Assembly (NCBI GenBank): GCA_963813895.1
Contig: CAWFAS010000003.1
Span: 543,914-607,913, forward strand
Direction: 5' to 3'
Length of the DNA: 64,000 bases
Source: an uncultured Gammaproteobacteria bacterium
Lineage (GTDB): Bacteria; Pseudomonadota; Gammaproteobacteria; JAURND01
Both the position numbers and the translations under genes were made by a program. Positions 4,122 through 56,586 of the stretch are shown here, piece by piece. Position 1 is the first letter of the stretch; each line of letters starts with the position of its first letter. The notes under the pieces were generated by a model, which saw only the letters and a list, made by a program, of their open reading frames with translations, was not told where the DNA came from and did not search any database.

Positions 4122-4279
4122 GAAGTCATAACTCTTAGCAATTGTTAGCTCTAAGGACAGCCATTTGTTAAAAATTACACCTAGAATCCGCCGTTTCCTC
4201 AACTCCTTTGCTGTCTAGCTGTTCTTAATTTCTGATGTACACCTTAATTTGTGCCTAAGCACATTATCTGATGCACTAT

Positions 4280-11606: not shown

Positions 11607-11765
11607 AAGTGAGGCAATATTCTGTTGATAAACCTAAAATTAAATCAGGTCTAACAATTGGAACTAAGCGGGCGATACCGAGTAATTTGTTAAAAAAATC
11701 CTTTGATGACCTTGTCATTTCACAAGATGGCTGCCTTGCCGAACAAAAACTCGTTACAAGCCAAC

Positions 11766-11972: not shown

Positions 11973-12004
11973 AACCCTGAGAGTAAATTAATCCTTTGAT
12001 CTTA

Positions 12005-13336: not shown

Positions 13337-13756
13337 AATAATTTTCCCTTTGATGAATGAACATTTTGTTTCATCGTAATATGTATTTTAAACCGATTTC
13401 CTTTTTGCACCTGGTCTAGCATACACATTTCCAATAATTAAATTACCAGTTTTATGCAAACATTAGTTCTTATTGCTGATAATACGATTAAGTATAGTAG
13501 ATGGGAATTACTAAGTGAGCCACATCAGGGGATTACCGAGGTTTTTAATCTCTTTAACCATAAATCTTAAACTTATTGGATATACCCAAATTCTTTCCAT
13601 CATGATTTTTAAGTTGATTATTTTCAAAAAAAGATCGTAAGCCACCAATATTCACTTTGCTTTCATTGTACTAATCATAGCAACATAAACTGGAGGTTTC
13701 CATGAGTAACTTCATCGTACCTGATCGCTAGTTTTGCTTGAAAGATTGGCCAGAAA

Positions 13757-13972
13757 ATGGCACAGGAATGCGGGTGCTATGCTTGCTATAGACTTTCAGA
13801 TAATTTCTTTGGAACTCCCCATCTTGAAAAAATGGGGAGCGAGGATTTTTTCAAAAATCATTATCTGAAAAACCAGTTGGGCAAAAAATATCAAAAAAAC
13901 TCCAAAGAATGTACAATTAAAAATTCTTATGCCTATTTTGAGAAAAACCATTCTTTTGATATTTATTTATGA
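13757..13972 (+). CDS. 71-aa Cys-rich small ORF translationally coupled (ATGA overlap) to the E1/rhodanese gene
   Basis: MAQECGCYACYRLSD... Its stop overlaps the start codon of the following gene. Confidence 0.3.
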   Translation: MAQECGCYACYRLSDNFFGTPHLEKMGSEDFFKNHYLKNQLGKKYQKNSKECTIKNSYAYFEKNHSFDIYL

Positions 13973-28976: not shown

Positions 28977-29762
28977 CTACTTCGCATAAGGCGGGTTATG
29001 CAAAGCTTTGCATAATCCACCCTGTGGCGTCCCTTCTTCTGTTGGATAAAATGCTTGTTTCTCGATGTAGCCAGATTTCAACCATTTTCGGAGAATTTTT
29101 CTATCTATAAGGATATTATTTTCTAACCATAAATGGTCTATTTTATCGAAGCACGATTTTATATCCCCTTCGAGAATCCACTGGGCAGATGTTCCTTTTG
29201 CAAGGGCATTGAAGCATTGCTCAATGGCGTCAGCACAAGATCTCTTAACCCTAAAACCATATGAGTTTTTATCCGCTTGAGTTTCTGCTACAGGTTCTAA
29301 AGCTAGCAAATGCAATGCTTGCATCGCTCTATCAGCCATCGTAGGGATTCCCAACGGGCGAGTCTGAGTGCTATCATTTTTCTTGGGGATATAAACACGC
29401 CGCAGCGGTTGAGGTTGGTAGCCTCTTTGCTTCAACGCACGTGCTGCTTGCATCTTTTCTTGTGAAGTCTTCCAGATGATACCGTCAACTCCAGCTGTTT
29501 TACTGCCAGAGTTTTCGGCGACTCGTTTTGTCGCTAGTAATTTAGCACAATGCGAGTGAGTTAGGAGATGTTGCAGAGCTTTCGCTTTGCCGCGTTTCCC
29601 TTCTCTAATGGCCTTCGCGATACGCACTTGCAGCCGGTAAACATGCTTGATAACCCTTGACCAATTTATAAAGCCCCAGGTCTTCAAACCTGCCGGAAGG
29701 GCACCCACTGACGATATTGCTGTCGCGGTCATTTGCGTTCTCCCATTATGCCGGTTCTCCAA
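28977..29762 (-). pseudogene. N-terminal fragment (RT blocks 0-4) of the split group II intron RT
   Basis: RPLGIPTMADRAMQ, GFRVKRSCADAI, ILEGDIKSCFDKIDH, ...GTPQGG, then runs into the RIT terminal repeat (LCKALHNPPYAK-stop). Confidence 0.8.
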
Positions 29763-30259
29763 GTTCTCTCACGATAAAACACCAGCTGGATGTGGGCCCG
29801 CTTGCGCGTTGAGTGGTTCAAACCCATATCTCTGTCGTTACAACAGAGCGTTCGCTTTTTCCAGCATCTCAAGCCTGCACTGTTGTAGGCTAGCTTTACA
29901 GTTAGCTTTCCTAAGGAAATCATTAGGGGCAGCACAGGGTTTCCACGTTCCGCTCAAATGAGTATGTCAGGTTAGGTGCCTACTATAGAACGGGAGATTC
30001 GGTGGCCACGAAAGTATATGGAAGAGAAAACTTTCCTATCTCCAGTGCTGATTTTAGCCAAGGCGTGTCAACCACTTTCGCCTTTTTTAAAGTTAACGTT
30101 CTTTGCGTAGATTCACATTACATTCACCATACTGACTTTCTAGCACTCACCCAACTTTGTGGTTGTCAGGAGGGCACGCTTCTTGCGATTTGTGCCCCGT
30201 GCACTAAACTTTGCACTTTGTTACGTTGTCAGGGTCGCTCTTTATTCAGACCCGTAGAA

Positions 30260-30502
30260 TCACCCGGTGGCACGGGTGGTCCCTCGCTCTTTTGAGTGGG
30301 ACAACTTTTTTTGAGCGACTTCGTGTCGCAACTTCCAGTCTTTATCCATCTTTAACAGATATTTAGCAGCCTCCACCAGGAAAAATTCTTTGTCTGCAAC
30401 CCCGGCCCATTGTATGTACTGTTCTATCTCAGCATTCAGGGATTTAGGCAGCTTGGTTCTGACGGCCACTGTTTCCAGATTAACCGGTTTAATTAACGGC
30501 AT
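30260..30502 (-). CDS. small hypothetical protein (possible ribbon-helix-helix type); 3' end overlaps the presumed intron 5' region
   Basis: 80-aa ORF MPLIKPVNLETVAVRTKLPKSLNAEIEQY... No firm homology. Confidence 0.3.
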   Translation of the reverse strand: MPLIKPVNLETVAVRTKLPKSLNAEIEQYIQWAGVADKEFFLVEAAKYLLKMDKDWKLRHEVAQKKLSHSKERGTTRATG

Positions 30503-30881: not shown

Positions 30882-31397
30882 ATGAAGAAAGAGACAGTAA
30901 AATTGAGACAGCATTTTGAGACAATAAATACTGATAAATTGGTTAATGGAAGCATCACGAACAGTCACTTATATTGCCACCTGCAACAACTCATGGGGAG
31001 GCTGGCAGATGATGAAATTTCCCATGCTTGCAGAGATCTGATAGGGGCAATGAACACCGCTTTACTCACAGGAGAAAGCCCTGAAAAACTAGTCCGGCGT
31101 ATTGGCAGAAAGCGTTCACCAAAGCTATATAATTTGCACTCCATGACTAGAGAAGAAGCCAAAAAAGAACTGGTAGAAATCAGACGACTGCGCAGATTGG
31201 CCGCAGCACATTCACCTATTCCTGGTGCACGAAAATTGGAACAATACCACCCTGAAATTATCACCCTCTATCAGTCAGATGCCTCTTATCGCGACATCCA
31301 ATTCTGGTTACGCGCCAAGAAAGGATTAGTGGTGTCTCATCATAGCGTACAGCGTTATCTAAAGGCCGTGTTAAATCATGATCCGAAAGAAATCTGA
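30882..31397 (+). CDS. hypothetical protein with C-terminal HTH-like segment, co-operonic with the downstream recombinase
   Basis: 171 aa. Overlaps the next gene by 20 nt. C-terminal ...ASYRDIQFWLRAKKGLVVSHHSVQRYL resembles an HTH. Confidence 0.45.
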   Translation: MKKETVKLRQHFETINTDKLVNGSITNSHLYCHLQQLMGRLADDEISHACRDLIGAMNTALLTGESPEKLVRRIGRKRSPKLYNLHSMTREEAKKELVEIRRLRRLAAAHSPIPGARKLEQYHPEIITLYQSDASYRDIQFWLRAKKGLVVSHHSVQRYLKAVLNHDPKEI

Positions 31398-32340
31398 TGG
31401 AAAAACCAGCGTTCAAGGTCATGCGCGATTCTCATTACGTGAGCAAGCTGAAAAGTATATAGACGCACGTGCTAATCGCGGCAAAAGCAAAGCCAGCGGC
31501 GCTATTTTGCGCAGCGACCGGACAGTGCAACGGTATCAGGGTGACTTGGGCCGAGCAGCTGAAGCCATTCAAAAAATCTACGGCATAATCCGCCTGAAAG
31601 ACATCACCCAACAGCAGGCCCAAGAATATATTGACGGACGTTTACGCGAAAAAATCAGAGTTCGCACGGTGCAGGGATACGCCAAAGCATTAGAAATGTT
31701 ACCTTTAGTTAAAAGTCTGACAGTGCCTTCACGGGCGAGTGATAAGCGGGATAAACCATGCCAGACTAGAGCCTATACCTATGAGCAAATTCAGGCGATC
31801 CAACATCATATTGTGACACCAACTGTGCGCTTGGCCATACAAATTCTGCAGGAATCAGGATGCCGAACCAAGGACTTTGCCTCAATCCGATTAGAAGCTG
31901 AACGGCCAGTTAAAAATGCCCGCTTAAACAAACTACATGCTGATCGATTTGCTGGCCGAGAGAACTGGGTTAAGGTCACTTTTGTCGGCAAGGGAGGCCA
32001 TGAATATATCTCAACCATTTCGCCTAAAACCGCAGAGGAGTTGGCTAAATACCGTCTGCCGCAGCCTCGTGATTTCCGAGAGCGTAACCAGGCTAACGTG
32101 GTGGCTAAACAGTATTATGATTTACCCGCGGGTTTCAATTTATCCAAGATTTGGAGTGAGGCATCCAGGAAAGCTTTATTAAATTCTAAGGGCGCGCACG
32201 GGCTTCGACATTACTTTGCGCAAAGCCGATTGCGGGAGATGTTATGGGCGGGTATGACCTGGGATAAAGCGGTGGAATGTGTTAGTCAGCTCATGGGTCA
32301 CTACCGCGCTTCGGAGGTAATAAACACCTATTTGCGATAG
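31378..32340 (+). CDS. tyrosine recombinase / phage-integrase-family protein (second, internal to the island)
   Basis: SAM-like N-terminal domain. C-terminal KGAHGLRHYFAQ ... LMGHYRASEVINTYLR (H-x-x-R ... Y). Confidence 0.75.
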   Translation: MIRKKSDGKTSVQGHARFSLREQAEKYIDARANRGKSKASGAILRSDRTVQRYQGDLGRAAEAIQKIYGIIRLKDITQQQAQEYIDGRLREKIRVRTVQGYAKALEMLPLVKSLTVPSRASDKRDKPCQTRAYTYEQIQAIQHHIVTPTVRLAIQILQESGCRTKDFASIRLEAERPVKNARLNKLHADRFAGRENWVKVTFVGKGGHEYISTISPKTAEELAKYRLPQPRDFRERNQANVVAKQYYDLPAGFNLSKIWSEASRKALLNSKGAHGLRHYFAQSRLREMLWAGMTWDKAVECVSQLMGHYRASEVINTYLR

Positions 32341-32371
32341 TGCCTGGAAATCAAATTTTAGTTAAGTGACA

Positions 32372-32402
32372 TTTTTCATGAGACATGAAAAATGACGCCT
32401 CC
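32372..32402. terminator. 13-bp perfect palindrome GTCATTTTTCATG-AGA-CATGAAAAATGAC between convergent genes (possible bidirectional terminator)
   Basis: Read directly. AT-rich stem, so terminator function is uncertain. Confidence 0.35.
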
Positions 32403-32596
32403 AAAGAGACGATTTTATGAGCCAATCAAGTGGCTCACTGGTGCCAACTGTCGTGTGGAGTCTATAACACAACAGAAGGATGCAAAGGTATTTTTGTGTT
32501 CAAAAATACCTTTGCAAAGAGGGCAATCTCTGCTCTCAGGCAACCGCGACGAGAAACCCAGAATGGTTTCCCGTTGCGGCAAAGACATTAGTACCA

Positions 32597-33124
32597 TTAA
32601 AGCAAACCTGTTTCAGCAAAACTAAATACTTGCCTGCCTGAGACAATAAAATGGTCCAATACCTTAATATCAAATAACTGCAAAATCTCTACCAACCTTG
32701 TTGTGATAGCCTTATCCGCCGTGCTGGGGTTTGTGCTATCACCCGATGGGTGATTATGTGCCAGGATGAGATTAACCGCGTTTAATTCCAATGCTTTTTT
32801 TGCAACTTCACGCGGATACACATGTGTGTTGCTAACACTACCGCGAAACATGGGTTCAAATGCAATTAACTTATTGCGGCAGTTTAAAAAAGCAACCCCA
32901 AACACTTCATAGGGTAAGGCGGACAAATGCATGATAAAAAAATCTTTGGCAGTACGACAGTCGGTAAAAGACTCTTTTTCAATACCCTGTTGATTTAAAA
33001 TGTTTTTAGCTTGTTCAATAATCTCCGCGCCGGTAACAGGGCGGGTAGCAGTATAAACATTAGAGGTTCCCTCATTAACAAAAGCAACCTCAGTATGTGT
33101 GGATAAATTTTGATGCATCAACAT
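32597..33124 (-). CDS. radC: RadC-like JAB/MPN-domain protein (UPF0758)
   Basis: JAMM motif region LILAHNHPSGDSTNPSTADKAITTRL. Start placed at the Met preceded by AGGAGA at 33124 (the ORF track extends to 33256). Confidence 0.8.
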   Translation of the reverse strand: MLMHQNLSTHTEVAFVNEGTSNVYTATRPVTGAEIIEQAKNILNQQGIEKESFTDCRTAKDFFIMHLSALPYEVFGVAFLNCRNKLIAFEPMFRGSVSNTHVYPREVAKKALELNAVNLILAHNHPSGDSTNPSTADKAITTRLVEILQLFDIKVLDHFIVSGRQVFSFAETGLL

Positions 33125-33149
33125 ATCTCCTGATTGAAAAAAAACCCAC

Positions 33150-33200
33150 AACGGAAATATATCCCCGCAGGGAAATATATTTCCCTGAAGTTGGGGAATT
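33150..33200 (-). repeat. palindromic hairpin element (GGGAAATATaTCCCcGCAGGGAAATATaTTTCCC type) just upstream of the radC start; member of the intergenic hairpin family seen at 40.5-42.9 kb
   Basis: Compare with 42866-42915 (GGGGAAATATTCCCTGCAGGGATATTTCCCC). Confidence 0.55.
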
Positions 33201-33359
33201 TGAAAAATCACCGCATAAGACCATGTTGAGTTGGCGGCAAAAAAGCGCAAACCCACTTAGTTTATGGATGATAGTTGAAATGCAAGCAGAGCAGACTTGC
33301 GATAAATACGGTAATCTGTATGAAAGACAGTAAAGAGTCTAAAGACTACGTTGCGCGAA

Positions 33360-33480
33360 AGAAGAATCCCCGAGGATACGGGTACAACCACAAAACCATT
33401 ATGAAAAAAATGGCGATCAGGGGTTTTCATTGTGGCTACGCCTGATCTTCACTGCGATTTTGAGTCTTGCAGTGTTGGAC
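33360..33480. repeat. ~110-bp diverged repeat (AAGAATCCCC..GGAT.GGGTAC...TGGCGATCAGGG...GCTACGCCTGATCTTCACTGCG.TTT..AGTCTTGCAG) with second copy at 43560-43670
   Basis: The two copies share ~70-75% identity, including a 23-nt perfect block GCTACGCCTGATCTTCACTGCG. Each lies ~250-300 bp upstream (minus sense) of a core operon start: radC and ssb. Confidence 0.6.
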
Positions 33481-34317
33481 TTAAGTTTTCAATATTATAC
33501 CAGCTGATTTGCATGTCAAGCATTTCCAGATTGAGGTTATGCGGTCGCTTTAAAAAGTATTTTTAAAGGATATTTAGGCGGGCATTTCAAGAAGCTGCCA
33601 CGTCTTTCGGTTGGGAGCTGCAATCAATTCTGAATAAGTTTCGGCAGTATAGGGGTAGTGCTGACGGGATACTTAATCTCAAGAGCCAGTGTTTCTGCTC
33701 CATCAATACATCGAGAAGCTCTGTATCGTGCTGGTATCGCAGGCTCGAATATGGGTCGGTGAGGCGCGGCGGATGAAGCACGCAGCCAACTTCTACGCAC
33801 GAGTTTTCGCGCCTGGTTTCTTGGGCAGACTTTCGTGGCGGCTTGGATGCGGCGCTTGCATGGCCTGCTGCGCAGTCCATGCAAGGAGTTCGCTGTACTC
33901 ACATCTTCTCTTTAGGTGCGTCTTGTAATCCCTTGGATGAAAATCCAGGCGATGTGTGGATGATCCCCAATATAAAAGCCAATCATTGCGAGAAAACACT
34001 ATACCCATTTGCTGTGGTGACATGGTGATTCCTATAAACAAAATAATCCATCAAAGGTGATTATTTTGGTTGTATTGAGGAAGTCAAAAAGCGCATTCAA
34101 TTGTATTACGGAAAATGGATCCAATAATTTGGGCACTCAACTAAAACAGATAATAGGCAAACACGCTCCCATGTTGCTGTATGTCAAATCTCAACTCAAG
34201 GCAGCCATATTCGCTGCTGAATCTAAAACTAAAAATGACCATACATAAAATAGCTTAGAAAAACTATTTAATTGATGTTCATGATACGAGTCACCCAAGA
34301 ATCGGTATGACCCCCTT

Positions 34318-34421
34318 TTGATCGTTAGCTCCTAACGATTTTAAGAGGCAATTGCATTACCGTTAGCGCCTAACGATATTGACAAGTAATTATATTATCG
34401 TTAGCATCTAACGAAAATAAG
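34318..34421 (+). promoter_or_regulatory. array of three 18-bp palindromic operator-like sites (TCGTTAGCTCCTAACGAT, CCGTTAGCGCCTAACGAT, TCGTTAGCATCTAACGAA) immediately upstream of ORF 34431
   Basis: Each is CGTTAG-N-CTAACG dyad symmetry, spaced ~43 bp. Related sites occur at 34880-34897 (GCGTTAGGTTCTAACGA) and 38024-38042 (AGCGTTAGGTACTAACGCT). Confidence 0.6.
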
Positions 34422-34430
34422 AGAGATGAC

Positions 34431-34865
34431 ATGGCAAGAGCTAAATTTAAAATTGATTCTGAAAAAACATTCCGAATTATCCGGTATTTCATCGATGGCA
34501 TTGATAAATCTCGATGTTTAAAGCATCTTGAAGGACAAGTTCAGGCTCAAAAAGAGTTAAGGTTACTCTTTGATCGATATTTACAAACCGCCACAAGGGA
34601 TACAGCAAAGGATAGCGCTGAGATAACAGAGGAATTAAAAATTTGGTTGGAAAAATATGCTTCAGATAAGGATTGGACCAATTGCCTTGGGGCAATCCGC
34701 CAACGGTCATTTTGCAGCCTTAAGAAAATGAAAACTATTAAATTTCCCGCCAAAGCATATTACGCTATCTATTATTATGCAAACGATAGGGATTTGCCGA
34801 TGTGGGAAGCTGTTTTTCAACTCGTTGAAAAAGAGGAAAGTTTATTGCGCCAGGCCAGGGATTAA
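34431..34865 (+). CDS. hypothetical 144-aa protein, candidate DNA-binding regulator of the palindromic operators
   Basis: ORF follows three dyad operators, and a fourth lies just after its stop. No recognisable family. Regulator role is inference. Confidence 0.45.
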   Translation: MARAKFKIDSEKTFRIIRYFIDGIDKSRCLKHLEGQVQAQKELRLLFDRYLQTATRDTAKDSAEITEELKIWLEKYASDKDWTNCLGAIRQRSFCSLKKMKTIKFPAKAYYAIYYYANDRDLPMWEAVFQLVEKEESLLRQARD

Positions 34866-35209
34866 AAAATCCTTTGCTGAGCGTTAGGTTCTAACGATTA
34901 AAAGGAAGTCTGGTCGATTTGGGCGGGGGTCAAATCTGTAGGGAAGAGGTCGGCAGGGGGGGCTGTGTTTATTTATGCCTTTGATGGCATAAATAAATAT
35001 AGACCTCCTGCTGATTTTCGGGGGCGATCTTGGAAAGCTCTGACCACTTGTGTCTGTCTAGCCAAGGGCCTAAACAGTTACTAATTCTTTTTACGGACTT
35101 CACTTTCCTTTACAGTAATCAAAATGACCTGGATTGTCCGCTCACTTGATCTAGCCCTATTGTTCAATAAATAATTATTAAACAGCCAGCCTTATACAAC
35201 AAAAGCTAC

Positions 35210-37441
35210 CTAAGCCTCAGCCATTTGAATATTATATCTCTCGCATACATCATATAGTGCTTTAATAGAATATTTTTCTTCAGAATTGAGCTGCAGCCCA
35301 TTAATTATGCCAACATGCCTCATCAGTTGGTGCAGATCAATAATTTTTTTGTCAACAAGTATTGAGTCAATATTTTTTTTCAACCCTGACGTGATACTCT
35401 TGCCATAGAGGGAAATTGCGCAGAGAAACTTTAAAAATCCTTCTCCCGTGCGGATTAAATGATTTATCCATAAATTTTCCCCCTCTAAATCACCGCACTC
35501 AACCCACAATAAAAGAATTAAACCCAAATTTTTTAGCGACTCCAATTTACCGTTGTCCCGAGCTTTATGTATGATTTCTAATCCTAATTTTTGCAACAAT
35601 TCAATGTTTTCTTCTTCAAAGTTAGGATCATTACCGGTAGGACTTTTTATTTTATCTAATTCAGTACCCAACCAATACAAAGGAAGGTACACGCCATTAG
35701 TTTCTTTTAATGATTTCGAAATGCAGGTTAATTTTTTGTTTTTATCTGCTTCCGCTCTTATGATTCTATCAATAATAACGGTAATATATGTTTTTGTAAG
35801 ATCATAGGAGGGTTGAGATTGAGACAAACTATCGCCAAAATCAAACAGAACAATGACAAAATTAGATAAATTTTCCTTTTTAATATCTATAGGTGATTGA
35901 TAAAGTCTATAGATTAGTTTAGTTAAAATGTTATTTTTTTCTAGTACTTCAAAATGTTTCCGCAGTGCCTCAATATCTGCCGAATTAATTATAATTTTTT
36001 CAATTTCTTCTTGAGAAACCTCTCCTTCTGATAGCTGAAGCTGAAAATATCTATCGAAAAAATCAGGATGATATAATCTTAGACTGGATTCACCAATGTA
36101 TGGTTTATTAGTAAGGCGACCCTCAAAATATTTCTTCAAGTTTGGAAATAAATAACGTACAATATCTTTTAAACTCTCGTTTTTAATTATTGAATTAATA
36201 AATTTCCTGTTTTCTTCAAAAAGTTCCGGGCTTGAGGAGAAGTTTTCAATAAAATATTTTTTATATTTATAAATATTTTCGTAAAATTTTGGCTCGTATT
36301 GTCGAATTACCTCTAGTAAAATTAAATCCATAATATTTACTTCCAAGGTATTATTTGTTTTCATCATATTTAGTTGAAATTGAAAAATGGATATAAAGCG
36401 CTTAATATCTCTAAGGTTGTTAAAATATCCATAAAAATTTACCAACAATACTTTTTTCTGATAATAGTCATTCAAGTGAGATAAATTATTGTGAATAATA
36501 ATTTTTTCCATATTTTCATGGAAAAAACTATGAATTGCCTGAATGGATGGCTTTGGTAGCTCAAAAGGAACTTGAATAATTTTTTTTAAATATTCTGAGC
36601 CAGAAATCCCATCTTCATGAAGATGAGCTTCAACGATATCTCGTTGAAAGAAAAGTACATAAATTAAGTTTGGAAAATCTGAGTTTGCTTTAATTATTTG
36701 AAATAATAATTTAGTTTCATTCTTATTGAGCCTATCTATGTCGTCAATCATTGTGACAATAGGATTATCAAGTTCATTAAGTAGCTCAGCAACTTCCTCT
36801 TTTATGGTTTGTAAAGATTTATTTTCTTCAAAACTCAGGCAGTCATGAAGGACATCAAAAAAGTTAGCCAAGTAATCAGATAAACTAACAAATGATAAAA
36901 TAACAACGGGTATTAATAAAAGCCAATGAGAATAACCATTTAATAATTTTAAAAATGGAGTTACTCCAATTGCCCCCAAAATAGTAAAAATCCACTTATT
37001 ACTTTTACCCAATGGACGAAAAATTATAGACGCTATGCGTAAACGAAGAGCATATTTTTTTAGTTTCTTTATTATTTTTTCAATTTTCTTTTTATTTTCT
37101 TTATTCTTGCTAGAATATAATCCAATTTGAACTTGATTAAACAGTTCCTTAGCAATAGCATGTTGTTCTTGCCATTCCCACGGATTAAACTGAACAACTT
37201 TAGCTCTACCTTTCAAACACTCAATTATCATGTTTTTAACCGAGGATTTGCCACTCCCCCACTCACCATACACCCCTATAATCAAATTATCTTTATTTTT
37301 ATATTTAGATATAGTTGTGGCGATATTTTCAGCAAATTTAGCACGATTAAGAAGGTCATCTTTTTTGTTTTCAATGGCTCGGTCATTGAAGAAAGGAGAA
37401 TCTTCAGCATCACTTTTTTCCATTTCAATAGTCCTAATCAA
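35210..37441 (-). CDS. KAP-family P-loop NTPase with membrane-spanning insertion
   Basis: Walker A GVYGEWGSGKSSV near the N-terminus. Two hydrophobic helices inserted after it (IFTILGAIGVTPFL..., LLLIPVVILSFVSL), which is diagnostic of KAP NTPases. Walker B-like IDDIDRL. Confidence 0.8.
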   Translation of the reverse strand: MIRTIEMEKSDAEDSPFFNDRAIENKKDDLLNRAKFAENIATTISKYKNKDNLIIGVYGEWGSGKSSVKNMIIECLKGRAKVVQFNPWEWQEQHAIAKELFNQVQIGLYSSKNKENKKKIEKIIKKLKKYALRLRIASIIFRPLGKSNKWIFTILGAIGVTPFLKLLNGYSHWLLLIPVVILSFVSLSDYLANFFDVLHDCLSFEENKSLQTIKEEVAELLNELDNPIVTMIDDIDRLNKNETKLLFQIIKANSDFPNLIYVLFFQRDIVEAHLHEDGISGSEYLKKIIQVPFELPKPSIQAIHSFFHENMEKIIIHNNLSHLNDYYQKKVLLVNFYGYFNNLRDIKRFISIFQFQLNMMKTNNTLEVNIMDLILLEVIRQYEPKFYENIYKYKKYFIENFSSSPELFEENRKFINSIIKNESLKDIVRYLFPNLKKYFEGRLTNKPYIGESSLRLYHPDFFDRYFQLQLSEGEVSQEEIEKIIINSADIEALRKHFEVLEKNNILTKLIYRLYQSPIDIKKENLSNFVIVLFDFGDSLSQSQPSYDLTKTYITVIIDRIIRAEADKNKKLTCISKSLKETNGVYLPLYWLGTELDKIKSPTGNDPNFEEENIELLQKLGLEIIHKARDNGKLESLKNLGLILLLWVECGDLEGENLWINHLIRTGEGFLKFLCAISLYGKSITSGLKKNIDSILVDKKIIDLHQLMRHVGIINGLQLNSEEKYSIKALYDVCERYNIQMAEA

Positions 37442-37757
37442 AATTAATTAATAACTCAAAAAAAAGAGTACCCAACTGATAACTCAGTTAGGCACTTAAG
37501 CAATTATGCTACTCTTCAATTAATTGCTTGGCCAACGCCACTTCAACATTCTCAGCCTCCATGTTCAACACATCAAGACTGGTCTTGGGCATTGTCCCTG
37601 CGGTTGATTAACTCACCGCAATCTTCTTGGCCATCAGCGAAGGGCACTCTATTTGCGCCGTCCGTTTATAACCCAAAAAATGTACAGCCGCCGGTCGAGT
37701 CTGCCCGATACCCAACTACGTCGCGTCGCTTGCAGCAAAGTATATGGGCAGGGGGTC

Positions 37758-37946
37758 CTATTTGTGGGGAATATAGCTGCACAATAATGTAGCTGTTATG
37801 CGGCCATAAGAATTAATGAGCATAAGCATGCTTTGAAGCAGAATTTTAATCTCACTGCCAATTTTTTTGTTCACTGAGAGATGGTCAAGCTCCGACTTGA
37901 TCCGATCAACCTCTTCGCGCACTGATTGTTTATTAACACTGCTCAT
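37758..37946 (-). CDS. 62-aa hypothetical protein upstream of the KAP NTPase, downstream of operator-like palindrome at 38024
   Basis: Small ORF on the same strand as the KAP gene. Weak. Confidence 0.25.
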   Translation of the reverse strand: MSSVNKQSVREEVDRIKSELDHLSVNKKIGSEIKILLQSMLMLINSYGRITATLLCSYIPHK

Positions 37947-38023
37947 ATTATTCCTAGCGATCTAATTAAACTTTCGCTATTATAACATAGGTTTTTTTGA
38001 CCCTCGCAATTGCGCGCCATTTA

Positions 38024-38042
38024 TTAGCGTTAGGTACTAACG
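38024..38042. promoter_or_regulatory. operator-like palindrome AGCGTTAGGTACTAACGCT (same family as 34318-34421)
   Basis: Perfect dyad, ~80 bp upstream of the minus-strand ORF 37758-37946 and the KAP NTPase gene. Confidence 0.5.
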
Positions 38043-38110
38043 CTTAAAAGAAGTCATACGGATCTGTGCTAGCTCTCCATCGCGTTTAGTGACGCAATAA
38101 CATGCCTTTA

Positions 38111-38422
38111 TTAGAAGCAGTCAAGCGCTCTGCTGTAGCAGGACACGTTTTTAGTTATGCACCTGCCCCCGGGCCGGGCATTATTTGGATTGATCTTAAT
38201 AGCCTGCTCATAGGCCCTTAAAGCGACTTCCAACTTATCTTGTTGGTATAAGGTCAAACCCAAGTCCAGGACGATGCTTATAGTATCGCCTTTGACTTTG
38301 CCCAACTGTTGACCAGTGGGCAATTTGCCTTTGAGTAACTGAGTGGATAGCTCACTCTCGACAGTACCAAATAAACCCAATATTTGTGCGCCTTTGCCCA
38401 GTGTTTGATCTACGAGCAGCAA
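38111..38422 (-). pseudogene. TPR-like gene fragment
   Basis: Only ~25 aa (ALRAYEQAIKINPNNA) look TPR-like. Abuts the truncated copy of the 4.28-kb repeat. Confidence 0.25.
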
Positions 38423-38436
38423 TTATCATGAGCTAA

Positions 38437-38483
38437 AAAATAATGGCTAGCTTGGCCGATATTATTAATGGCTTGAGTGGATA
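38437..38483 (+). repeat. second (truncated) copy of the 4280-4330 repeat
   Basis: ATAATGGCTAGCTTGGCCGATATTATTAATGGCTTGAGTGGATAA versus ATAATGGCTAGCATGGCTGACATTTTTAACAGATTGGGTGGATA. Confidence 0.6.
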
Positions 38484-38916
38484 ATATACAATATCTGCAA
38501 ATTGTCCTTGAAAATTTACTGAATTAACCAATTTAGAATTTTTAAGTTTTCATTAATACAGGAGACTCATATAGTAACTGGCAAGAAACCCGCCTTCTTA
38601 GCAGCCAAAGGATTAAAAAATAAAAAAACGTGCCAAACTCCGAGAATAGTAGATGGAAGCGATTTAGCCCAACTTCAAGGAAGAAAACAACAAAAGCAAA
38701 AAATAGAAAGTAATTGAATTTGGAATAATTTGAGGCCAGTCAATTAGGCCACTCCAAAACGAAAAAAATACTATTTAGTCCGCTATGTGGCATAAATTTA
38801 CAGGCACAAGCTAAGAGAGAATTGCACCTCTATCGGGGAGTTCGATTGCGCTGTTTTCGCTGTAGCTGCGGGTAATCATAGATATCATTATTAACCTTCA
38901 TGGAGTAATTCAGTTA

Positions 38917-40122
38917 ATGAAGAATTTTGCGAATAATACTCGAGGCGATAATTCAATCCCTCAACTTAGAAAATCACGGGATGAAATTAATAAATTTCTT
39001 TCGGATCAGATCAGAGAAGGCAAAGAAAATTTTTTGGTGGTTGAAATTGGCAGCTCAGCCCAATTGGATGAAACACAAAGAGAATACAAAAAATGGAAAT
39101 CATCCAACAAAAACTATTTAACTATAGCATTTAGTAATGATCAATTTTCGAACCAATATGATAATACCTATGTTTCAATGGACATTAGAACTTCTAGAAC
39201 TCCTTTTTCAATGGAGGTAAAATATTTTAAAGATGAAGTACAGTCTAATATTGATAAGCTAATAGAAATTTTAGATACACTACCTCTATGTGAAACGACT
39301 CAATTAGAAAGCTCTGAAATACCTGTGAGTAACCAAGATTTCGACAATGTTGTTCTGGGTTATGTTAATAGTCAATCTCCTTCTCCCGTTAGATTCAATA
39401 TGGCAAAAATTGAAAAATTGACGGGGTTAAAAAATAATACAGAAAATGAAGGCGATCTTATACGATTTTTGCAAACTGTAGATTTTCTTGTGGATGAAGG
39501 TTATTTAAGATGTTCTTCTAAGCACATACGTTATGGCATGAACTATGATCTAATCCTGCAACTCGATCAGCTCGTTACTATTACAGAGAAGGGTAAAGAT
39601 AAAATAAAATCTAATCTTACACAACAGAATATCAAAATTCATGACAATAATAAAAAAGTCTTTATAGTGCACGGGCATGATGATACGGCCAAGCTTCAAG
39701 TGGCTTATTTTCTAAAAACAATTGGATTAGAGCCGATTATTTTACACGAACAACCAAACAAGGGTCGTACAATTATTGAAAAGTTGAATGATCATGCGCA
39801 GGAAGTCGCTTTTGCTGTAATATTACTCACGCCTGATGATATTGGTTGTGCTAAAAAAGAGTTTGATGGTGATGTTCAAAAATTGAAGCCACGCGCCAGG
39901 CAAAACGTGGTTTTGGAGCTTGGTCTTTTTATAGGTCTCTTAGGAGGAAAGAACGTTTGTGCTTTAATGAAAGGCGCTATTGAACAGCCTAGCGATTATA
40001 ATGGAGTACTTTATATCAATATGGATGAATCCGATGGATGGCAGATACGACTTATTAAAGAATTAAACGCGGCTAATTTAGATATTGACCATACAGCTCT
40101 TGTTACTTCCGGTAAAAATTGA
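38917..40122 (+). CDS. TIR-like (Cap12/Pycsar-TIR-type, COG4271) C-terminal domain protein with unknown ~230-aa N-terminal domain
   Basis: C-terminal KKVFIVHGHDDTAKLQVAYFLKTIGLEPIILHEQPNKGRTIIEKLNDHAQEVAFAVILLTPDD matches the TIR-like nucleotide-binding-domain signature. Confidence 0.7.
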   Translation: MKNFANNTRGDNSIPQLRKSRDEINKFLSDQIREGKENFLVVEIGSSAQLDETQREYKKWKSSNKNYLTIAFSNDQFSNQYDNTYVSMDIRTSRTPFSMEVKYFKDEVQSNIDKLIEILDTLPLCETTQLESSEIPVSNQDFDNVVLGYVNSQSPSPVRFNMAKIEKLTGLKNNTENEGDLIRFLQTVDFLVDEGYLRCSSKHIRYGMNYDLILQLDQLVTITEKGKDKIKSNLTQQNIKIHDNNKKVFIVHGHDDTAKLQVAYFLKTIGLEPIILHEQPNKGRTIIEKLNDHAQEVAFAVILLTPDDIGCAKKEFDGDVQKLKPRARQNVVLELGLFIGLLGGKNVCALMKGAIEQPSDYNGVLYINMDESDGWQIRLIKELNAANLDIDHTALVTSGKN

Positions 40123-40139
40123 TTCCGTTTAGTTGTAAA

Positions 40140-40492
40140 CCTGCTTTTTGGTTCTATAGGATCTAAGGCGGATTAAAGAACAACAGACCAAAACACTGCC
40201 TGGTAATGATGCAGTCCATTAAATCACCGTGGATGCAATGATTTAACAGCGATTTGGCGTGCCAGGCGCGTTCTTTATCAATTTCAACCCCATAGGCAGG
40301 GTGCGGGTTTGGACTAAAGGATGTTTGCATTCAGCCAATGCTAAGCCTTTTCCGGCAGTGGGATCAAAGATGGCCAGTTGATCACCACTTTCAGCGGGAA
40401 CTAAGGCATTTAAGATGCGCCCAGTATCTCGCTGTCAGTGGGAAAATAACCGAACTTGATAAAGTTTCGTGCCAGTCGTTGAAATAACATAG
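40140..40492 (-). pseudogene. 5' remnant of an N6-adenine DNA methyltransferase gene (frameshifted and truncated)
   Basis: Translation from the ATG at 40492 gives MLFQRLARNFIKFGYFPTDSEILGAS-stop. The next frame continues LNALVPAESGDQLAIFDPTAGKGLALAE, which is MTase motif X/I style (YFTP...; xLDPxxGxG). The ORF dies at the edge of the inserted TIR gene. Confidence 0.4.
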
Positions 40493-40511
40493 TGGTTTCT
40501 CCTGTGGTTGA

Positions 40512-40565
40512 AAATTAAAAGGAGAAACCATCCCCAGGGAGTTAGTTTCTCCCCGTTTGGGACTC
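40512..40565 (-). repeat. intergenic hairpin element (GGAGAAACCATCCCCAGGGAGTTAGTTTCTCCCC) upstream of the MTase remnant start
   Basis: Stem GGAGAAAC / GTTTCTCC read directly. Confidence 0.55.
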
Positions 40566-40602
40566 TATTTATTGCAGATCACGATACGATCTGCTTTATG
40601 GT

Positions 40603-40938
40603 TTACGCAGCATAGGAATATACATGCGGTTCCACCAATTGTTTAAAAGGTACTTTGAATATACTTCGGTCTCGCTCAATGGTCAGGGCCGATGGGCTAT
40701 GAGCAGACTTTAATTCGGATAAAGCAAAATAGCCTAATTCATTTTCAAAACCCTGCACAAATCCAAAAAATAAAAAATCCTTATCTTCCGGATACCATTC
40801 TCCCTCGAACACATACCATGTCCAGTTAGAATATGGTGAGAAGAATTTACAAATGACGATTCTCTCAGCCAAAGGCAGGTGTTCAGTTGCATACAATTTT
40901 GGTAATGCAGCTTTAATTTTTTGGGTTAATAACATCAT
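40603..40938 (-). CDS. DUF2958-family ICE protein
   Basis: Pattern ...LP.LY..E.....A...KFF.P...WTWY..E......D..FGFV.G.E.ELGYF.LSEL.......L.IERD..F matches DUF2958, common in ICE/plasmid leading regions. Confidence 0.7.
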   Translation of the reverse strand: MMLLTQKIKAALPKLYATEHLPLAERIVICKFFSPYSNWTWYVFEGEWYPEDKDFLFFGFVQGFENELGYFALSELKSAHSPSALTIERDRSIFKVPFKQLVEPHVYSYAA

Positions 40939-40957
40939 GATATTTCTCCTATAAAAA

Positions 40958-41010
40958 AATTTGAATCAGGAGAAATATCCCCGAAGGGAGCTTCTCCCTT
41001 CGGGTGTAGA
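40958..41010 (-). repeat. intergenic hairpin element (GGAGAAATATCCCCGAAGGGAGCTTCTCCCTTCGGG) upstream of DUF2958 gene
   Basis: Nested inverted repeats read directly. Confidence 0.55.
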
Positions 41011-41669: not shown

Positions 41670-41692
41670 AATTTCTCCATAATTTAAAAAAA

Positions 41693-41760
41693 ATAAGGAG
41701 AAACCATCCCAACTGGGAGTTGGTTTCTCCCCAGCTGGGACTTGATTAGTTACAGATCAA
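41693..41760 (-). repeat. intergenic hairpin element (GGAGAAACCAACTCCCAGTTGGGATGGTTTCTCC) upstream of 41019-41669
   Basis: 10-bp stem GGAGAAACCA / TGGTTTCTCC with inner CCCAGTTGGG dyad. Followed (gene sense) by T-run, GGAG, ATG. Confidence 0.6.
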
Positions 41761-43559: not shown

Positions 43560-43670
43560 AATCCCCATTAGGATGGGTACGGCTATGACACCAGGATTAA
43601 ATCTGGCGATCAGGGAATTGCATCATAGCTACGCCTGATCTTCACTGCGGTTTATAGTCTTGCAGAGAGC
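43560..43670. repeat. second copy of the ~110-bp repeat (see 33360-33480)
   Basis: See 33360-33480. Confidence 0.6.
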
Positions 43671-43717
43671 GACTAATACAGATAATTTTACCCCAATTAT
43701 TTGTGGAAGCAATATTC

Positions 43718-55325: not shown

Positions 55326-56586
55326 CATAAACAATTTTTCTCCCTTCAGGGTCATAATCAATTTGAATTTGTTTGGCAAAATTCACGACAATCATTTGTG
55401 GCGTGCCATCGGTTTTCACTGTGGGCACAAACACCGCATCAAAACTATTTTCCTCACGGTCATGCCACCATTGCTGAACTTGGCCAGCAGCATTACTCAT
55501 CGCTTGACCGGCCACATAAGCCCCTGGAGATCCCGTGACGCTGGAAGTGTTAGTACCAACAATCGTGCTTTGCGAACTAGTCTGGGATTGGGCATAGGCA
55601 TTGGCGGCTCCTTGAGCCGCCCCGAGTGCGATATTGATGCCTAAATAGGTCGGTGCATTGGTGATGAGTTTGCCGCGAATCGCTGGATTACCGCGTTCGT
55701 CTGATAAATAGCCTAAGGCGTTATTTTTGCTGTAATGGCCGATATCATTATCGTTGGAGCTGGTGGTGGAAATAGTGCCGTCAGCAAATACAAATGTGAG
55801 TGATGTCACCCATCCGCGGGTGCTTTCTAAATTCAGATCGCCTTCGGTGTAGCCGCTGACGATCATTTGTCTTAAGTTCGGCACACGCAAACCGTTAGCA
55901 GCTAACGTATTATCGGAAAATACAATTTTGAATGGATACGGATCTGTCACGACCCCTTTCACAGGAATTCTACCCACCAACGGTGTCATTAGGCGGTCTT
56001 CTACAGCGGTCGCATTGGGTGGGATGGTATAAAAAGGTATGGGTGGGGGTTTTTTATTATTGACTGCTTCAGCATTATTTTTTTCCTTTTCTTGCGCACG
56101 TCGAGCTTGTTCTTTAGGGTCGGTTAAGGTGTCTGCTAATTCCGGTATGGTGGTAATGGGTTGCGGCACATTGTCTGAATTAACCGGATAATTGACACTA
56201 TTTATGGGTTTAATTTTTTGCACTTGGTCTTTGAGTTCAGCCACTTGCTGAGATAAATCGCCAGTTGTTTTATCTTTTTTGCCTTGCAGCTTCGCCAATA
56301 ATTGCTGATTCTGTTGTAGGGTTTCATTGTTTTTGACTACGGAGTTGACCTGTTGTTGTGTTGCCGATAATTGTGCCGTTAGGGTATCTAACGATTCAGC
56401 CGCACTGTCTTGTGATGCAGTGTTTTTTGCATTTTTAGGCGTTGTGATTAATGGAACCGATTTTTTATCGTGATGGCTGACCGAGAAGAAAGCCACTACC
56501 AATAACAAGACAATGATGGGTGCAGCAAATTTTAATAACCCGTTAGTTTTATGCGCTGCCATGACAGACTCCCAACACATCACCAA
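55285..56586 (-). CDS. VirB10/TraB-like bitopic protein (N-terminal TM, coiled coil, Pro-rich linker, C-terminal beta domain)
   Basis: Architecture only: TM helix, QQ-rich coiled coil, KKPPPIPFYTIPP, beta-rich C-terminus. Confidence 0.45.
   Translation of the reverse strand: MVMCWESVMAAHKTNGLLKFAAPIIVLLLVVAFFSVSHHDKKSVPLITTPKNAKNTASQDSAAESLDTLTAQLSATQQQVNSVVKNNETLQQNQQLLAKLQGKKDKTTGDLSQQVAELKDQVQKIKPINSVNYPVNSDNVPQPITTIPELADTLTDPKEQARRAQEKEKNNAEAVNNKKPPPIPFYTIPPNATAVEDRLMTPLVGRIPVKGVVTDPYPFKIVFSDNTLAANGLRVPNLRQMIVSGYTEGDLNLESTRGWVTSLTFVFADGTISTTSSNDNDIGHYSKNNALGYLSDERGNPAIRGKLITNAPTYLGINIALGAAQGAANAYAQSQTSSQSTIVGTNTSSVTGSPGAYVAGQAMSNAAGQVQQWWHDREENSFDAVFVPTVKTDGTPQMIVVNFAKQIQIDYDPEGRKIVYAHPFDSNVSHRLD

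What the first reader, a model, noticed from the sequence alone, without database searches (positions are those of the whole stretch)
33300..40500. Candidate anti-phage defence islet (KAP P-loop NTPase + TIR-like protein + dedicated regulator) inserted into the ICE core between radC and a truncated methyltransferase gene
The conserved ICE core on the minus strand runs from radC up to the DUF2958/ssb block, but about 7 kb is interposed between radC and that block. The insert carries a membrane-inserted KAP-family NTPase (35210-37441), a protein with a Cap12/Pycsar-type TIR-like domain and an unknown N-terminal domain (38917-40122), a putative regulator with operator arrays (34431-34865), gene fragments (TPR-like, GC-rich scraps) and one copy of a 47-bp repeat. 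The insertion appears to have removed the 3' part of a DNA methyltransferase gene, leaving a frameshifted N-terminal remnant at 40140-40492. KAP NTPases and TIR-like effectors are individually known from defence islands. A KAP+TIR pairing under a private dyad-operator regulon is not, to my knowledge, a named system.
Basis: partly seen in the sequence, partly recalled or inferred. Interest (0 to 1): 0.8.

Follow-up and report, generated by a model that had tools for sequence, protein, structure and literature searches.

The report
Two separate defence genes in ICE
A variable spot of an integrative conjugative element holds two unrelated single-gene anti-phage candidates, a PifA-like membrane NTPase and a TIR-like protein. 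They are neighbours by accretion rather than a new two-gene system, and the "regulator" beside them is a conserved MatP-like DNA-binding protein of the element itself.

Summary
There is an intact KAP P-loop NTPase (35210-37423, minus strand), an intact PF10137 TIR-like protein (38917-40122), a small protein with arrays of a 15-bp dyad (34431-34865), gene debris, and a frameshifted, 3'-truncated DUF6094 methyltransferase remnant (40164-40492).

- Each defence gene matches its own single-gene model: PADLOC PifA at 5e-66 and PDC-S35 at 3e-72.
- None of 80 metagenomic PifA-like loci carries a TIR-like gene, and none of 80 TIR-like loci carries a PifA-like KAP.
- The two genes diverge across 1.5 kb of debris and differ in GC content.
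- The only other adjacency found is the pif locus of plasmid F and Klebsiella plasmids. That is a single lineage, and its TIR unit also occurs without a KAP gene.
- The "dedicated regulator" is a MatP-like ribbon-helix-helix protein. It is part of a conserved radC-linked module that sits next to different cargo in a relative.
- No dyad lies in either defence gene's promoter.
- The "7-kb insert" is a mosaic. 33257-34896 is backbone. A 3.1-kb KAP piece is bracketed by ~30-bp dyad-containing direct repeats. A second piece with the TIR gene abuts the broken methyltransferase.

Verdict: ordinary accretion of defence genes in an ICE hotspot, each a new member of a known kind.

The parts
32597..33256 (-). 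radC (RadC-like JAB domain). Left part of a conserved 2.5-kb backbone module; not part of the insert.
   Evidence: PF04002 9.8e-38. Window 32331-34882 is 95% identical to L004.
33421..33921 (.). It carries a near-consensus promoter facing radC (TTGACA at 33519, extended -10 TGGTATAAT) and a 76-nt leader (33406-33481) that is repeated upstream of ssb (43599-43674).
   Evidence: 77.6% identical to L005 and 95% to L004. Mismatches by codon position are 36/40/32 and no ORF is conserved. Repeat. Promoter. Folding z-scores are only -1.4 and -1.1.
34323..34413 (.). Three 15-bp dyads CGTTAG-N3-CTAACG at 38-bp spacing. They flank and overlap the -35 (TTGACA, 34379) and -10 (TAGCAT, 34402-34407) of the 144-aa gene.
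   Evidence: The same arrangement is seen in L004 and L005 and in the 36%-identical homologue L174.
34431..34865 (+). MatP-like ribbon-helix-helix DNA-binding protein (144 aa). Probable autorepressor and site-binding protein of the ICE backbone.
   Evidence: No Pfam hit on its own. 36 remote clusters found. The family profile hits MatP structures 7nyw, 4d8j and 3vea at 6e-6 to 1.5e-5. Two members hit Pfam MatP_C.
34879..34910 (.). Left copy of a ~30-bp direct repeat containing a dyad (AGCGTTAGGTTCTAACGATTAAAAGGAAGTC). Homology to L005 ends here; homology to L004 ends at 34931.
34957..35008 (.). 23-bp-arm inverted repeat between the convergent 144-aa gene and the KAP gene. Candidate bidirectional terminator.
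   Evidence: I3.
35210..37423 (-). PifA-like KAP P-loop NTPase, 737 aa, intact, GC 0.30.
   Evidence: PF07693 5.8e-44. PADLOC PifA 5.4e-66, profile 141-671 of 720. 24% identical to F PifA, 2e-27. Invariant columns run to residue 680 in the five-protein alignment. Hydropathy and GC.
37467..37496 (-). Intrinsic-terminator-like hairpin (13-bp stem plus T-run) just upstream of the KAP start. It ends the decayed ORF above it.
37509..37946 (-). Decayed ORF (~146 codons, three in-frame stops). Its first 62 codons are called as a gene on L001. No family match.
38025..38055 (.). Right copy of the dyad-containing direct repeat (AGCGTTAGGTACTAACGCTTAAAAGAAGTC). 38022-38101 is homologous to the DNA that directly follows the regulator gene in L005, so 34897-38021 is a ~3.1-kb inserted piece.
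   Evidence: L005 1503-1581 matches window 38022-38101 at 80%, 1.3e-13. Repeat comparison.
38111..38422 (-). TPR-repeat gene fragment.
   Evidence: TPR_11, TPR_2 and TPR_1 at 1e-7.
38435..38483 (.). The other copy, at 4281-4329, lies in a 70-aa ORF (4271-4483) of unidentified origin.
38917..40122 (+). TIR-like protein of the PF10137 / PDC-S35 family, 401 aa. It has the family N-terminal helical domain (12-126), an orphan ~110-aa insert (127-240) and a TIR-like domain (245-395) with invariant E334.
40164..40492 (-). DUF6094 methyltransferase remnant. Two frameshifts, truncated right after motif IV (NPP). About 65-70 codons are missing.
40603..40938 (-). DUF2958 gene. First intact backbone gene to the right of the variable region.
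   Evidence: PF11171 1.3e-9.

Best explanation
The stretch between a conserved radC/MatP-like module and the DUF6094-DUF2958-ssb gene block of a tRNA-Thr-integrated, MPF-G-type ICE is a cargo hotspot. At least two separate acquisitions have built up there.

(1) A ~3.1-kb piece (34897-38021) carries a PifA-like KAP NTPase. It is bracketed by ~30-bp direct repeats that contain the MatP-like protein's palindromic site.

(2) A piece carrying a PDC-S35-type TIR-like gene. Its arrival, or a later deletion, removed the 3' third of the methyltransferase gene.

Each gene most likely acts alone as an abortive-infection-type anti-phage module.
- The KAP protein sits in the membrane through the hydrophobic hairpin inserted in its P-loop domain. 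It would sense a phage protein and use NTP hydrolysis to compromise the membrane, as described for F PifA.
- The TIR-like protein would be held inactive by its N-terminal helical domain. On activation it would oligomerise and hydrolyse NAD+ through the conserved glutamate E334.

The 144-aa protein is an ICE backbone protein. It binds the GTTAG-N3-CTAAC palindromes and represses its own promoter. It is not a regulator dedicated to the two defence genes.

Shown here: domain and family matches, intactness, gene architecture, lack of co-occurrence, backbone versus insert boundaries, and co-conservation of the site with the protein. Inferred: all biochemical activities, the triggers and the phenotype.
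For: Family matches:
- KAP: PF07693 5.8e-44 and PADLOC PifA 5.4e-66. Full-length alignment with F PifA and three plasmid homologues has invariant residues up to position 680.
- TIR: PF10137 4.2e-40 and PDC-S35 3e-72. The family N-domain is recovered. The fold matches Cap12 TIR domains. The Glu of QNVVLELG is invariant and aligns with the Glu of NVVFEFG in Cap12.

Independence of the two genes:
- 0 TIR-like ORFs in 80 PifA-like loci (717 kb).
- 0 KAP ORFs in 80 TIR-like loci (1.0 Mb).
- Plasmid homologues of each stand alone, beside other defence genes or IS elements.
- GC is 0.30 vs 0.34, against 0.41 for the window.

Single-gene activity: KAP NTPases were shown experimentally to defend as single genes (PMC13552941). 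PifA is an Abi protein of F (PMC8594841).

Boundaries.

Regulator. Terminator and distances.
Against: - No experiment exists for this locus.
- PDC-S35 is, to my knowledge, only a computationally proposed candidate; no paper in the library mentions it.
- The KAP is only 24-29% identical to any homologue, and BLASTP to F PifA covers only the N-terminal half.
- No convincing promoter was found for either gene.
- The same two families are adjacent at the F/Klebsiella pif locus, which leaves some room for cooperation.
- The un-inserted state of this ICE was not recovered. The closest relative (a 450,955-bp contig) could not be fetched.
- The 3.1-kb piece could also result from recombination between pre-existing sites rather than from an insertion.
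Confidence: 0.66

Rival explanations
1. KAP and TIR-like proteins form one cooperative two-gene defence system, for example a membrane sensor/NTPase plus an NADase effector, controlled by the dyad-binding protein.
For: - The two genes lie within 1.5 kb of each other, and dyad sites lie at 34882 and 38028.
- The same two families are immediate neighbours at the pif locus of plasmid F and of Klebsiella plasmids. Their record counts in the plasmid collection run in parallel (1061 vs 1155; Klebsiella 627 vs 617).
- The BASEL authors could not obtain a functional ectopic pifA construct (PMC8594841).
Against: - 0/80 and 0/80 co-occurrence.
- F and Klebsiella are one lineage (PifA 91%, TIR 87% identical). 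The F-type small-ORF+TIR unit occurs without KAP in P. aeruginosa.
- The window TIR protein belongs to a different N-domain subfamily from F's.
- Gene orientation differs: divergent here, convergent in F.
- Decayed ORFs and a terminator lie between the two genes.
- The regulator is conserved with unrelated cargo.
Confidence: 0.07
2. The genes are not phage defence in this host. They could serve competition between mobile elements or ICE maintenance (exclusion of incoming plasmids or ICEs, addiction), or they could be silent hitch-hikers on their way to decay like their neighbours.
For: - The surroundings are full of decayed genes: the methyltransferase remnant, a TPR fragment and a stop-riddled ORF.
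- No clear promoters were found.
- The BASEL paper suggests PifA may not have evolved primarily as an immunity system.
- TIR-like genes sit in establishment regions of conjugative plasmids next to DUF2958.
Against: - Both ORFs are full length with all catalytic motifs intact, although adjacent genes have decayed.
- Relatives of both families lie in defence islands and prophages.
- KAP NTPases protect against phages experimentally.
Confidence: 0.17
3. The palindromic sites of the MatP-like protein are cassette boundaries. Cargo pieces such as the KAP segment would be captured or exchanged by recombination at these sites, or looped and silenced by protein bridging between them. On this view the MatP-like module actively organises the hotspot.
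For: - The KAP piece is bracketed by ~30-bp direct repeats containing the site. In L005 the two flanks are contiguous.
- Homology with L004 breaks within ~50 bp of the site, and L004 has two such sites before its own cargo.
- MatP, the closest solved relative, bridges distant sites (my knowledge of the MatP literature).
Against: - Only three comparison loci are available.
- No recombinase was linked to the sites.
- The window-L004 homology extends ~35 nt past the site.
- Direct repeats of an operator can arise by ordinary homologous recombination.
- The TIR piece has no such repeat at its right edge.
Confidence: 0.1

Closest known systems
PifA of E. coli plasmid F (KAP-family NTPase, abortive infection of T7)
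   Same: - KAP P-loop domain.
- Similar length (737 vs 741 aa).
- Matches the PADLOC PifA model over most of its length (5.4e-66).
- Carried on a conjugative element.
- Stand-alone gene.
   Different: - Only 24% identical, and pairwise similarity is limited to the N-terminal ~385 residues.
- No pifC repressor gene.
- Has a clear hydrophobic insert that F PifA lacks by the same measure.
- Host, trigger and phenotype are unknown.
PDC-S35 (PADLOC single-gene defence candidate); PF10137 'CAP12/Pycsar effector TIR' proteins, annotated 'nucleotide-binding protein'
   Same: - N-terminal helical domain plus C-terminal TIR-like domain.
- All family-invariant residues are present.
- 45-63% identity in the TIR-like part to thousands of proteins.
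   Different: - 401 aa instead of ~270-300, because of a ~110-aa insert (127-240) with no detectable relatives.
- The exact protein is known only from one genome and one read-assembly contig.
CBASS Cap12 (TIR-STING) and Pycsar PycTIR NADase effectors
   Same: Closest solved folds for the TIR-like domain. Shares the R-x-N-V-x-x-E-x-G motif with the glutamate.
   Different: - No STING, SAVED or cNMP-binding domain.
- No cyclase gene nearby.
- NCBIfam Cap12 scores 31.6 bits against a cut-off of 450.
MatP (Ter macrodomain protein) and its matS sites
   Same: - ~145-150 aa.
- Profile similarity over the end of the helical bundle and the ribbon-helix-helix (6e-6).
- The cognate site is a 5-N3-5 palindrome (GTTAG-N3-CTAAC here; GTGAC-N3-GTCAC for matS, from my knowledge).
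   Different: - Encoded on a mobile element.
- Sites cluster on its own promoter and gene end, so the layout is that of an autoregulator.
- The site sequence differs.
- The C-terminal coiled coil was not assessed.
- The AF2 model is poor (pLDDT 54).
Defence-gene hotspots of ICEs and conjugative plasmids (for example the SXT-family hotspots; my knowledge)
   Same: Variable cargo position between conserved backbone genes, holding unrelated defence genes with deviant GC content and gene debris.
   Different: A different ICE family (MPF-G type, T4SS ATPase at most 38% identical to plasmid ones). The hotspot is bounded by a MatP-like protein's sites.

Membership tests
KAP P-loop NTPase / PifA-type single-gene defence | KAP_NTPase domain with Walker A and Walker B | tested here: met
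   PF07693 5.8e-44. GEWGSGKS at residue 53 and VTMIDD at 223.
KAP P-loop NTPase / PifA-type single-gene defence | Hydrophobic (transmembrane) segment(s) inserted between Walker A and Walker B | tested here: met
   Kyte-Doolittle 19-residue windows reach 2.12 at 163-189, with a weaker hydrophobic stretch just before. This is hydropathy only; no topology predictor was run.
KAP P-loop NTPase / PifA-type single-gene defence | Similarity to PifA beyond the NTPase domain (C-terminal region) | tested here: met
   The PADLOC PifA profile matches positions 141-671 of 720. Invariant columns run to residue 680 in the alignment with F PifA. Pairwise BLASTP alone stops at residue 387.
KAP P-loop NTPase / PifA-type single-gene defence | pifC-pifA operon organisation | tested here: not met
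   tblastn with F PifC finds nothing in the window (best E 2.7).
KAP P-loop NTPase / PifA-type single-gene defence | Phage exclusion phenotype dependent on NTPase motifs | not testable with these tools
   Needs plaque assays with K59 and D227/D228 mutants.
PDC-S35 / PF10137 TIR-like proteins | PF10137 TIR-like domain with the family's invariant residues, including the Glu of the ELG motif | tested here: met
   PF10137 4.2e-40 and PDC-S35 3e-72. E334 and 25 other invariant columns are retained. TIR fold.
PDC-S35 / PF10137 TIR-like proteins | Family-typical N-terminal helical domain | tested here: met
   hhalign 98.3%, E 1.6e-14, residues 12-126. pLDDT is 90-98 there.
PDC-S35 / PF10137 TIR-like proteins | Compact two-domain architecture (~270-300 aa) | tested here: not met
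   401 aa. Residues ~127-240 are an insert with no homologues among 7085 hits and low model confidence.
PDC-S35 / PF10137 TIR-like proteins | Demonstrated anti-phage activity or NADase activity | not testable with these tools
   No paper in the library mentions PDC-S35.
CBASS Cap12 / Pycsar PycTIR effector | Cyclic-nucleotide sensor domain fused to the TIR domain, and a cyclase gene nearby | tested here: not met
   No such Pfam domain in the protein or in neighbouring ORFs. NCBIfam Cap12 scores 31.6 bits vs cut-off 450.
Qat system (QatA) | QatA equivalog score and qatBCD partners | tested here: not met
   NF041923 scores 63.8 bits vs cut-off 600, N-terminal 210 residues only. No partner genes.
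Hypothetical KAP+TIR two-gene system | Conserved co-occurrence of the two families across unrelated genomes | tested here: not met
   0/80 and 0/80. The only other adjacency is the F/Klebsiella pif locus, one lineage.
MatP-like ribbon-helix-helix DNA-binding proteins | Sequence similarity to the MatP helical bundle plus RHH | tested here: met
   The family profile hits 7nyw, 4d8j and 3vea at 5.8e-6 to 1.5e-5. MatP_C is hit by 2 of 31 members at 0.003. The window protein alone has no Pfam hit.
MatP-like ribbon-helix-helix DNA-binding proteins | Cognate short palindromic site conserved with the protein | tested here: met
   The same dyad lies at the promoters and gene ends of homologues at 96%, 67% and 36% identity. 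Binding itself was not tested.
MatP-like ribbon-helix-helix DNA-binding proteins | Chromosome-scale distribution of sites (Ter macrodomain role) | tested here: not met
   Four of the six sites in the window (64 kb) lie within 575 bp, around the protein's own gene.

The most novel reading that the evidence does not exclude
PifA-type KAP NTPases and PF10137 TIR-like proteins cooperate functionally on conjugative elements. For example, a membrane-lesion sensor and an NAD+-depleting effector might reinforce each other. This would explain why the same two families are neighbours both at the classical pif locus of F/Klebsiella plasmids and in this unrelated ICE. In addition, the MatP-like protein's palindromes that bracket the KAP piece might mark or insulate exchangeable cargo cassettes.
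Probability: 0.07. Interest if true: 0.6.

Novelty: new member of a known kind. Interest (0 to 1): 0.3.

Why it matters
This adds a divergent PifA-like NTPase and an unusually long PDC-S35-type TIR-like protein to the list of defence genes carried by ICEs. It also shows how such a hotspot is assembled piece by piece.

Three by-products may deserve more attention than the islet itself:
- The archetypal pifA gene of plasmid F has an uncharacterised TIR-like neighbour of the same family.
- A small family of MatP-like ribbon-helix-helix proteins exists on mobile elements, each with a conserved matS-like palindrome.
- A conserved non-coding promoter/leader element is shared by the radC and ssb operons of this ICE.

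Tried and rejected
- Megablast of 32500-41000 against plasmids: no match.
- Genome-collection scan with the DUF2958 protein: only two distant loci, neither informative about the insert edges. L002 has topB after DUF2958.
- Fetching the closest related ICE (450,955-bp contig) through P0125, P0128 and P0130: not on record.
- AF2 model of the 144-aa protein without an alignment: too poor for a fold search (pLDDT 54.5).
- Pfam, NCBIfam, PHROGs and PADLOC on the 144-aa protein alone: nothing. A tblastn against plasmids also found nothing.
- Rfam on 28-46 kb: only a group II intron domain at 30143-30279; nothing in the islet.
- RNA folding of the conserved non-coding block on both strands: z-scores -1.4 and -1.1, no support for a structured RNA.
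- Treating the 62-aa ORF and its continuation as an IS or transposase remnant: no family hit.
- Apparent similarity of the TIR protein's insert to an IncI plasmid protein: too weak to count.
- Using P0136 as the 'intact' methyltransferase: its contig (L090) is partly mirrored, so its C-terminus is unreliable. The length estimate rests on P0137-P0141 instead.

Full report
**Setting**

The window carries a tRNA-Thr (2167-2242) next to a tyrosine integrase (2249-3424). Cargo follows: a POT transporter, YcaO/TfuA, ThiF, a two-component system and group II introns. From about 43.7 kb onward, on the minus strand, lie an AcaB-like regulator, a TraI_2 relaxase, a coupling protein and an F-like/MPF-G mating apparatus. 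The T4SS ATPase is at most 38% identical to any plasmid homologue. This is an integrative conjugative element in an uncharacterised host. The exact TIR-like and KAP proteins are known from only one NCBI/ENA contig of 780,640 bp. One 7.6-kb read-assembly contig (L001) is identical to the window over this region.

**Check of the observation**

- KAP gene. The domain is real (PF07693, 5.8e-44). The gene most likely starts at the ATG at 37423 (737 aa), as called on L001. It has Walker A at residue 53, Walker B at 223 and a strongly hydrophobic segment between them.
- TIR-like gene. The domain is real (PF10137, 4.2e-40). An alignment-based AF2 model is confident for residues 10-130 and 245-395. Its best structural matches are the TIR domains of Cap12 TIR-STING.
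- Dyads. CGTTAG-N3-CTAACG occurs six times in the window against 0.06 expected.
- Methyltransferase remnant. It is a DUF6094 fragment with two frameshifts that stops at NPP(Y). Homologues are about 170-187 aa against about 110 aa retained. Nucleotide similarity to a homologue ends at 40164, 41 bp from the TIR stop codon.
- Other debris. The TPR fragment and a 49-nt repeat (38435-38483 and 4281-4329) are also there.

**What the two defence-type genes are**

In PADLOC-DB the KAP protein matches the single-gene model PifA (5.4e-66, profile 141-671 of 720). The TIR-like protein matches the single-gene candidate PDC-S35 (3e-72). Matches to QatA and Cap12 are far below the curated cut-offs.

The KAP aligns over its full length with F PifA and three plasmid homologues at 21-26% identity, with invariant residues up to position 680. 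No pifC homologue is present.

The TIR-like domain has more than 7000 relatives at 45-63% identity. It is followed by an orphan ~110-aa insert. The glutamate of QNVVLELG (E334) is invariant in the family and aligns with the glutamate of the NVVFEFG motif of Cap12. That this residue is the catalytic one is my inference from what is known of TIR NADases.

**Is KAP+TIR a system?**

I fetched 80 metagenomic loci encoding PifA-like KAP proteins (717 kb). None contains a PF10137-type ORF, while the same HMM finds the window and F proteins. I fetched 80 viral/prophage loci encoding the TIR-like family (1.0 Mb). None contains a PifA-like KAP. Plasmid homologues of the KAP stand alone next to IS elements, an anti-phage dCTP deaminase or restriction genes.

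There is one exception. On plasmid F, pifA is convergent with, and 50 bp from, a 299-aa 'nucleotide-binding protein' whose TIR-like domain is 49% identical to the window's. The same locus is on Klebsiella plasmids, and the two families have parallel record counts in the plasmid collection. However:
- F and Klebsiella are one lineage (PifA 91%, TIR 87% identical).
- The F-type unit (a 96-aa ORF plus the TIR protein) occurs without any KAP in a P. aeruginosa plasmid.
- Other plasmid TIR-like genes also lack a KAP neighbour.
- The F protein has a different N-terminal region from the window protein.

In the window the two genes are divergent and 1.5 kb apart. Between them lie a stop-riddled ORF, a terminator and a TPR fragment. 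Their GC content also differs (0.30 vs 0.34). I conclude that these are two independent modules sitting side by side.

**The 'dedicated regulator'**

The 144-aa protein has no family hit on its own. The word-indexed search found only two clusters of relatives. An exhaustive profile search found 36 remote clusters of mostly 130-160-aa proteins. The profile built from them hits MatP structures at 6e-6 to 1.5e-5, over the end of the helical bundle and the ribbon-helix-helix. Two members also hit Pfam MatP_C.

The dyad travels with the protein:
- three copies over the promoter plus downstream copies in L004 (96% identical protein);
- two upstream and one downstream in L005 (67%);
- one on the -10 region and a degenerate one at the gene end in L174 (36%).

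In the window the third dyad overlaps the -10 and the second abuts the -35. This is the layout of an autorepressor.

The gene is backbone, not insert. Window 32331-34882 (radC, a conserved non-coding block and this gene) is 95% identical to L004. L004 continues into entirely different cargo: a TraG fragment, Rap1a, an acetyltransferase, a beta-lactamase, Sel1, LuxR, TPR and a group II intron.

Neither defence gene has a dyad in its promoter. The 38028 site is 605 bp from the KAP start with a 13-bp-stem terminator in between, and 875 bp from the TIR start.

**Anatomy of the variable region**

In L005 the DNA that directly follows the regulator gene (1503-1581) is homologous to window 38022-38101 (80%, 1.3e-13). 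So 34897-38021 (a hairpin, KAP, a terminator and a decayed ORF) is a ~3.1-kb piece absent from L005. It is bracketed by ~30-bp direct repeats that contain the dyad (34879-34910 and 38025-38055).

The rest (38102-40163) holds the TPR fragment, the 49-nt repeat, AT-rich spacer and the TIR-like gene. It ends where the methyltransferase is cut.

It is 77.6% identical to L005. Mismatches are spread evenly over codon positions (36/40/32) and no ORF is shared. It has a near-consensus promoter facing radC. Its 76-nt leader is repeated upstream of ssb.

**Mechanism (inferred)**

PifA of F senses T7 proteins (gp1.2, and to some extent the capsid protein) and kills the infected cell through membrane damage (PMC8594841; reference list of PMC13552941). 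KAP NTPases fused to uncharacterised C-terminal regions protect as single genes and need the Walker B motif (PMC13552941). I expect the window KAP to work the same way.

For the TIR-like protein I expect activation-dependent oligomerisation and NAD+ hydrolysis, as in Cap12 and PycTIR. Here there is no nucleotide second messenger, because no sensor domain or cyclase is present.

All activities, triggers and phenotypes remain untested.

**Verdict**

The sequence features are real and the defence-gene reading is reasonable. The novel elements of the interpretation do not hold: not a KAP+TIR system, not a private regulon, not a single 7-kb insertion. This is ordinary, stepwise accretion of single-gene defence modules in an ICE hotspot, and each gene is a new, divergent member of a known kind. 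The side observations (the TIR-like neighbour of pifA on F, and MatP-like proteins with matS-like sites on mobile elements) are the more interesting leads.

Noticed in passing
L009 (NC_002483 38000-56000) 3217-6671; L175 4283-7736: On plasmid F the classical Abi gene pifA is convergent with, and 50 bp from, a 96-aa ORF plus a 299-aa PF10137 TIR-like 'nucleotide-binding protein'. The same locus is on Klebsiella IncFIB plasmids (PifA 91%, TIR 87% identical). The two families have near-parallel counts in the plasmid collection (1061 vs 1155 records). The BASEL paper reports failing to get a functional ectopic pifA construct.
   Followed up: partly
window 34323-34896, 38028-38042, 55893-55907; L004 8040-8784; L005 898-1485; L174 5962-6471: A small family of ~145-aa MatP-like ribbon-helix-helix proteins on mobile elements. 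Each has the palindrome (C)GTTAG-N3-CTAAC(G) on its own promoter and again just past its stop codon. One further exact site lies inside a T4SS gene at 55893.
   Followed up: partly
window 33406-33921 and 43599-43674: A ~500-nt conserved non-coding block upstream of radC with a near-consensus promoter. Its 76-nt leader has two hairpins and a T-run and is repeated (80% identical) upstream of ssb. This suggests a shared regulatory leader for two operons of the ICE. No Rfam hit and no significant folding energy.
   Followed up: partly
window 40496-40534, 40940-41000, 41672-41710: Repeated hairpins (GGTTTCTCC...GGAGAAACC and variants) that pair with the Shine-Dalgarno sequence of three consecutive genes: the methyltransferase remnant, DUF2958 and the 216-aa ORF. 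This could be translational control or single-strand-specific elements of a leading region.
   Followed up: no
window 4281-4329 and 38435-38483: 49-nt repeat (82% identical). The copy near the integrase end lies at the start of a 70-aa ORF (4271-4483) of unidentified origin, and both copies begin a short MAS(L/M)AD... reading frame. My impression that the 70-aa ORF's C-terminus resembles that of P4-type integrases is from memory and was not tested.
   Followed up: no
L177 (CP136985.1) 3299-5444: In a P. aeruginosa conjugative plasmid the small-ORF+TIR-like unit sits next to a DUF2958 gene and ParB/DUF932-type establishment genes. This echoes the position of the window's TIR-like gene beside DUF2958.
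   Followed up: no
L090 (ENA ERZ25039604 contig_42587): The contig is partly mirrored: ssb and radC on the plus strand, then radC and ssb fragments on the minus strand. The 3' part of its DUF6094 gene resembles the reverse complement of its own 5' part. This is either an assembly artefact or a real inverted duplication. It also carries an ApeA-type HEPN gene and DUF4238 next to ssb.
   Followed up: no
window 8484-15087; 16428-18302; 28977-30279: The ICE cargo includes a YcaO-TfuA pair and a ThiF-rhodanese protein (thioamide/RiPP-type chemistry), one full group II intron reverse transcriptase, and a truncated second one with an Rfam group II intron domain hit (RF02012, 1.3e-12).
   Followed up: no
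window 31378-32340: A 320-aa divergent tyrosine-recombinase-like ORF ends exactly where homology with L004 begins (32331). It lies just outside the conserved radC/MatP-like module and was not linked to the dyad sites.
   Followed up: no
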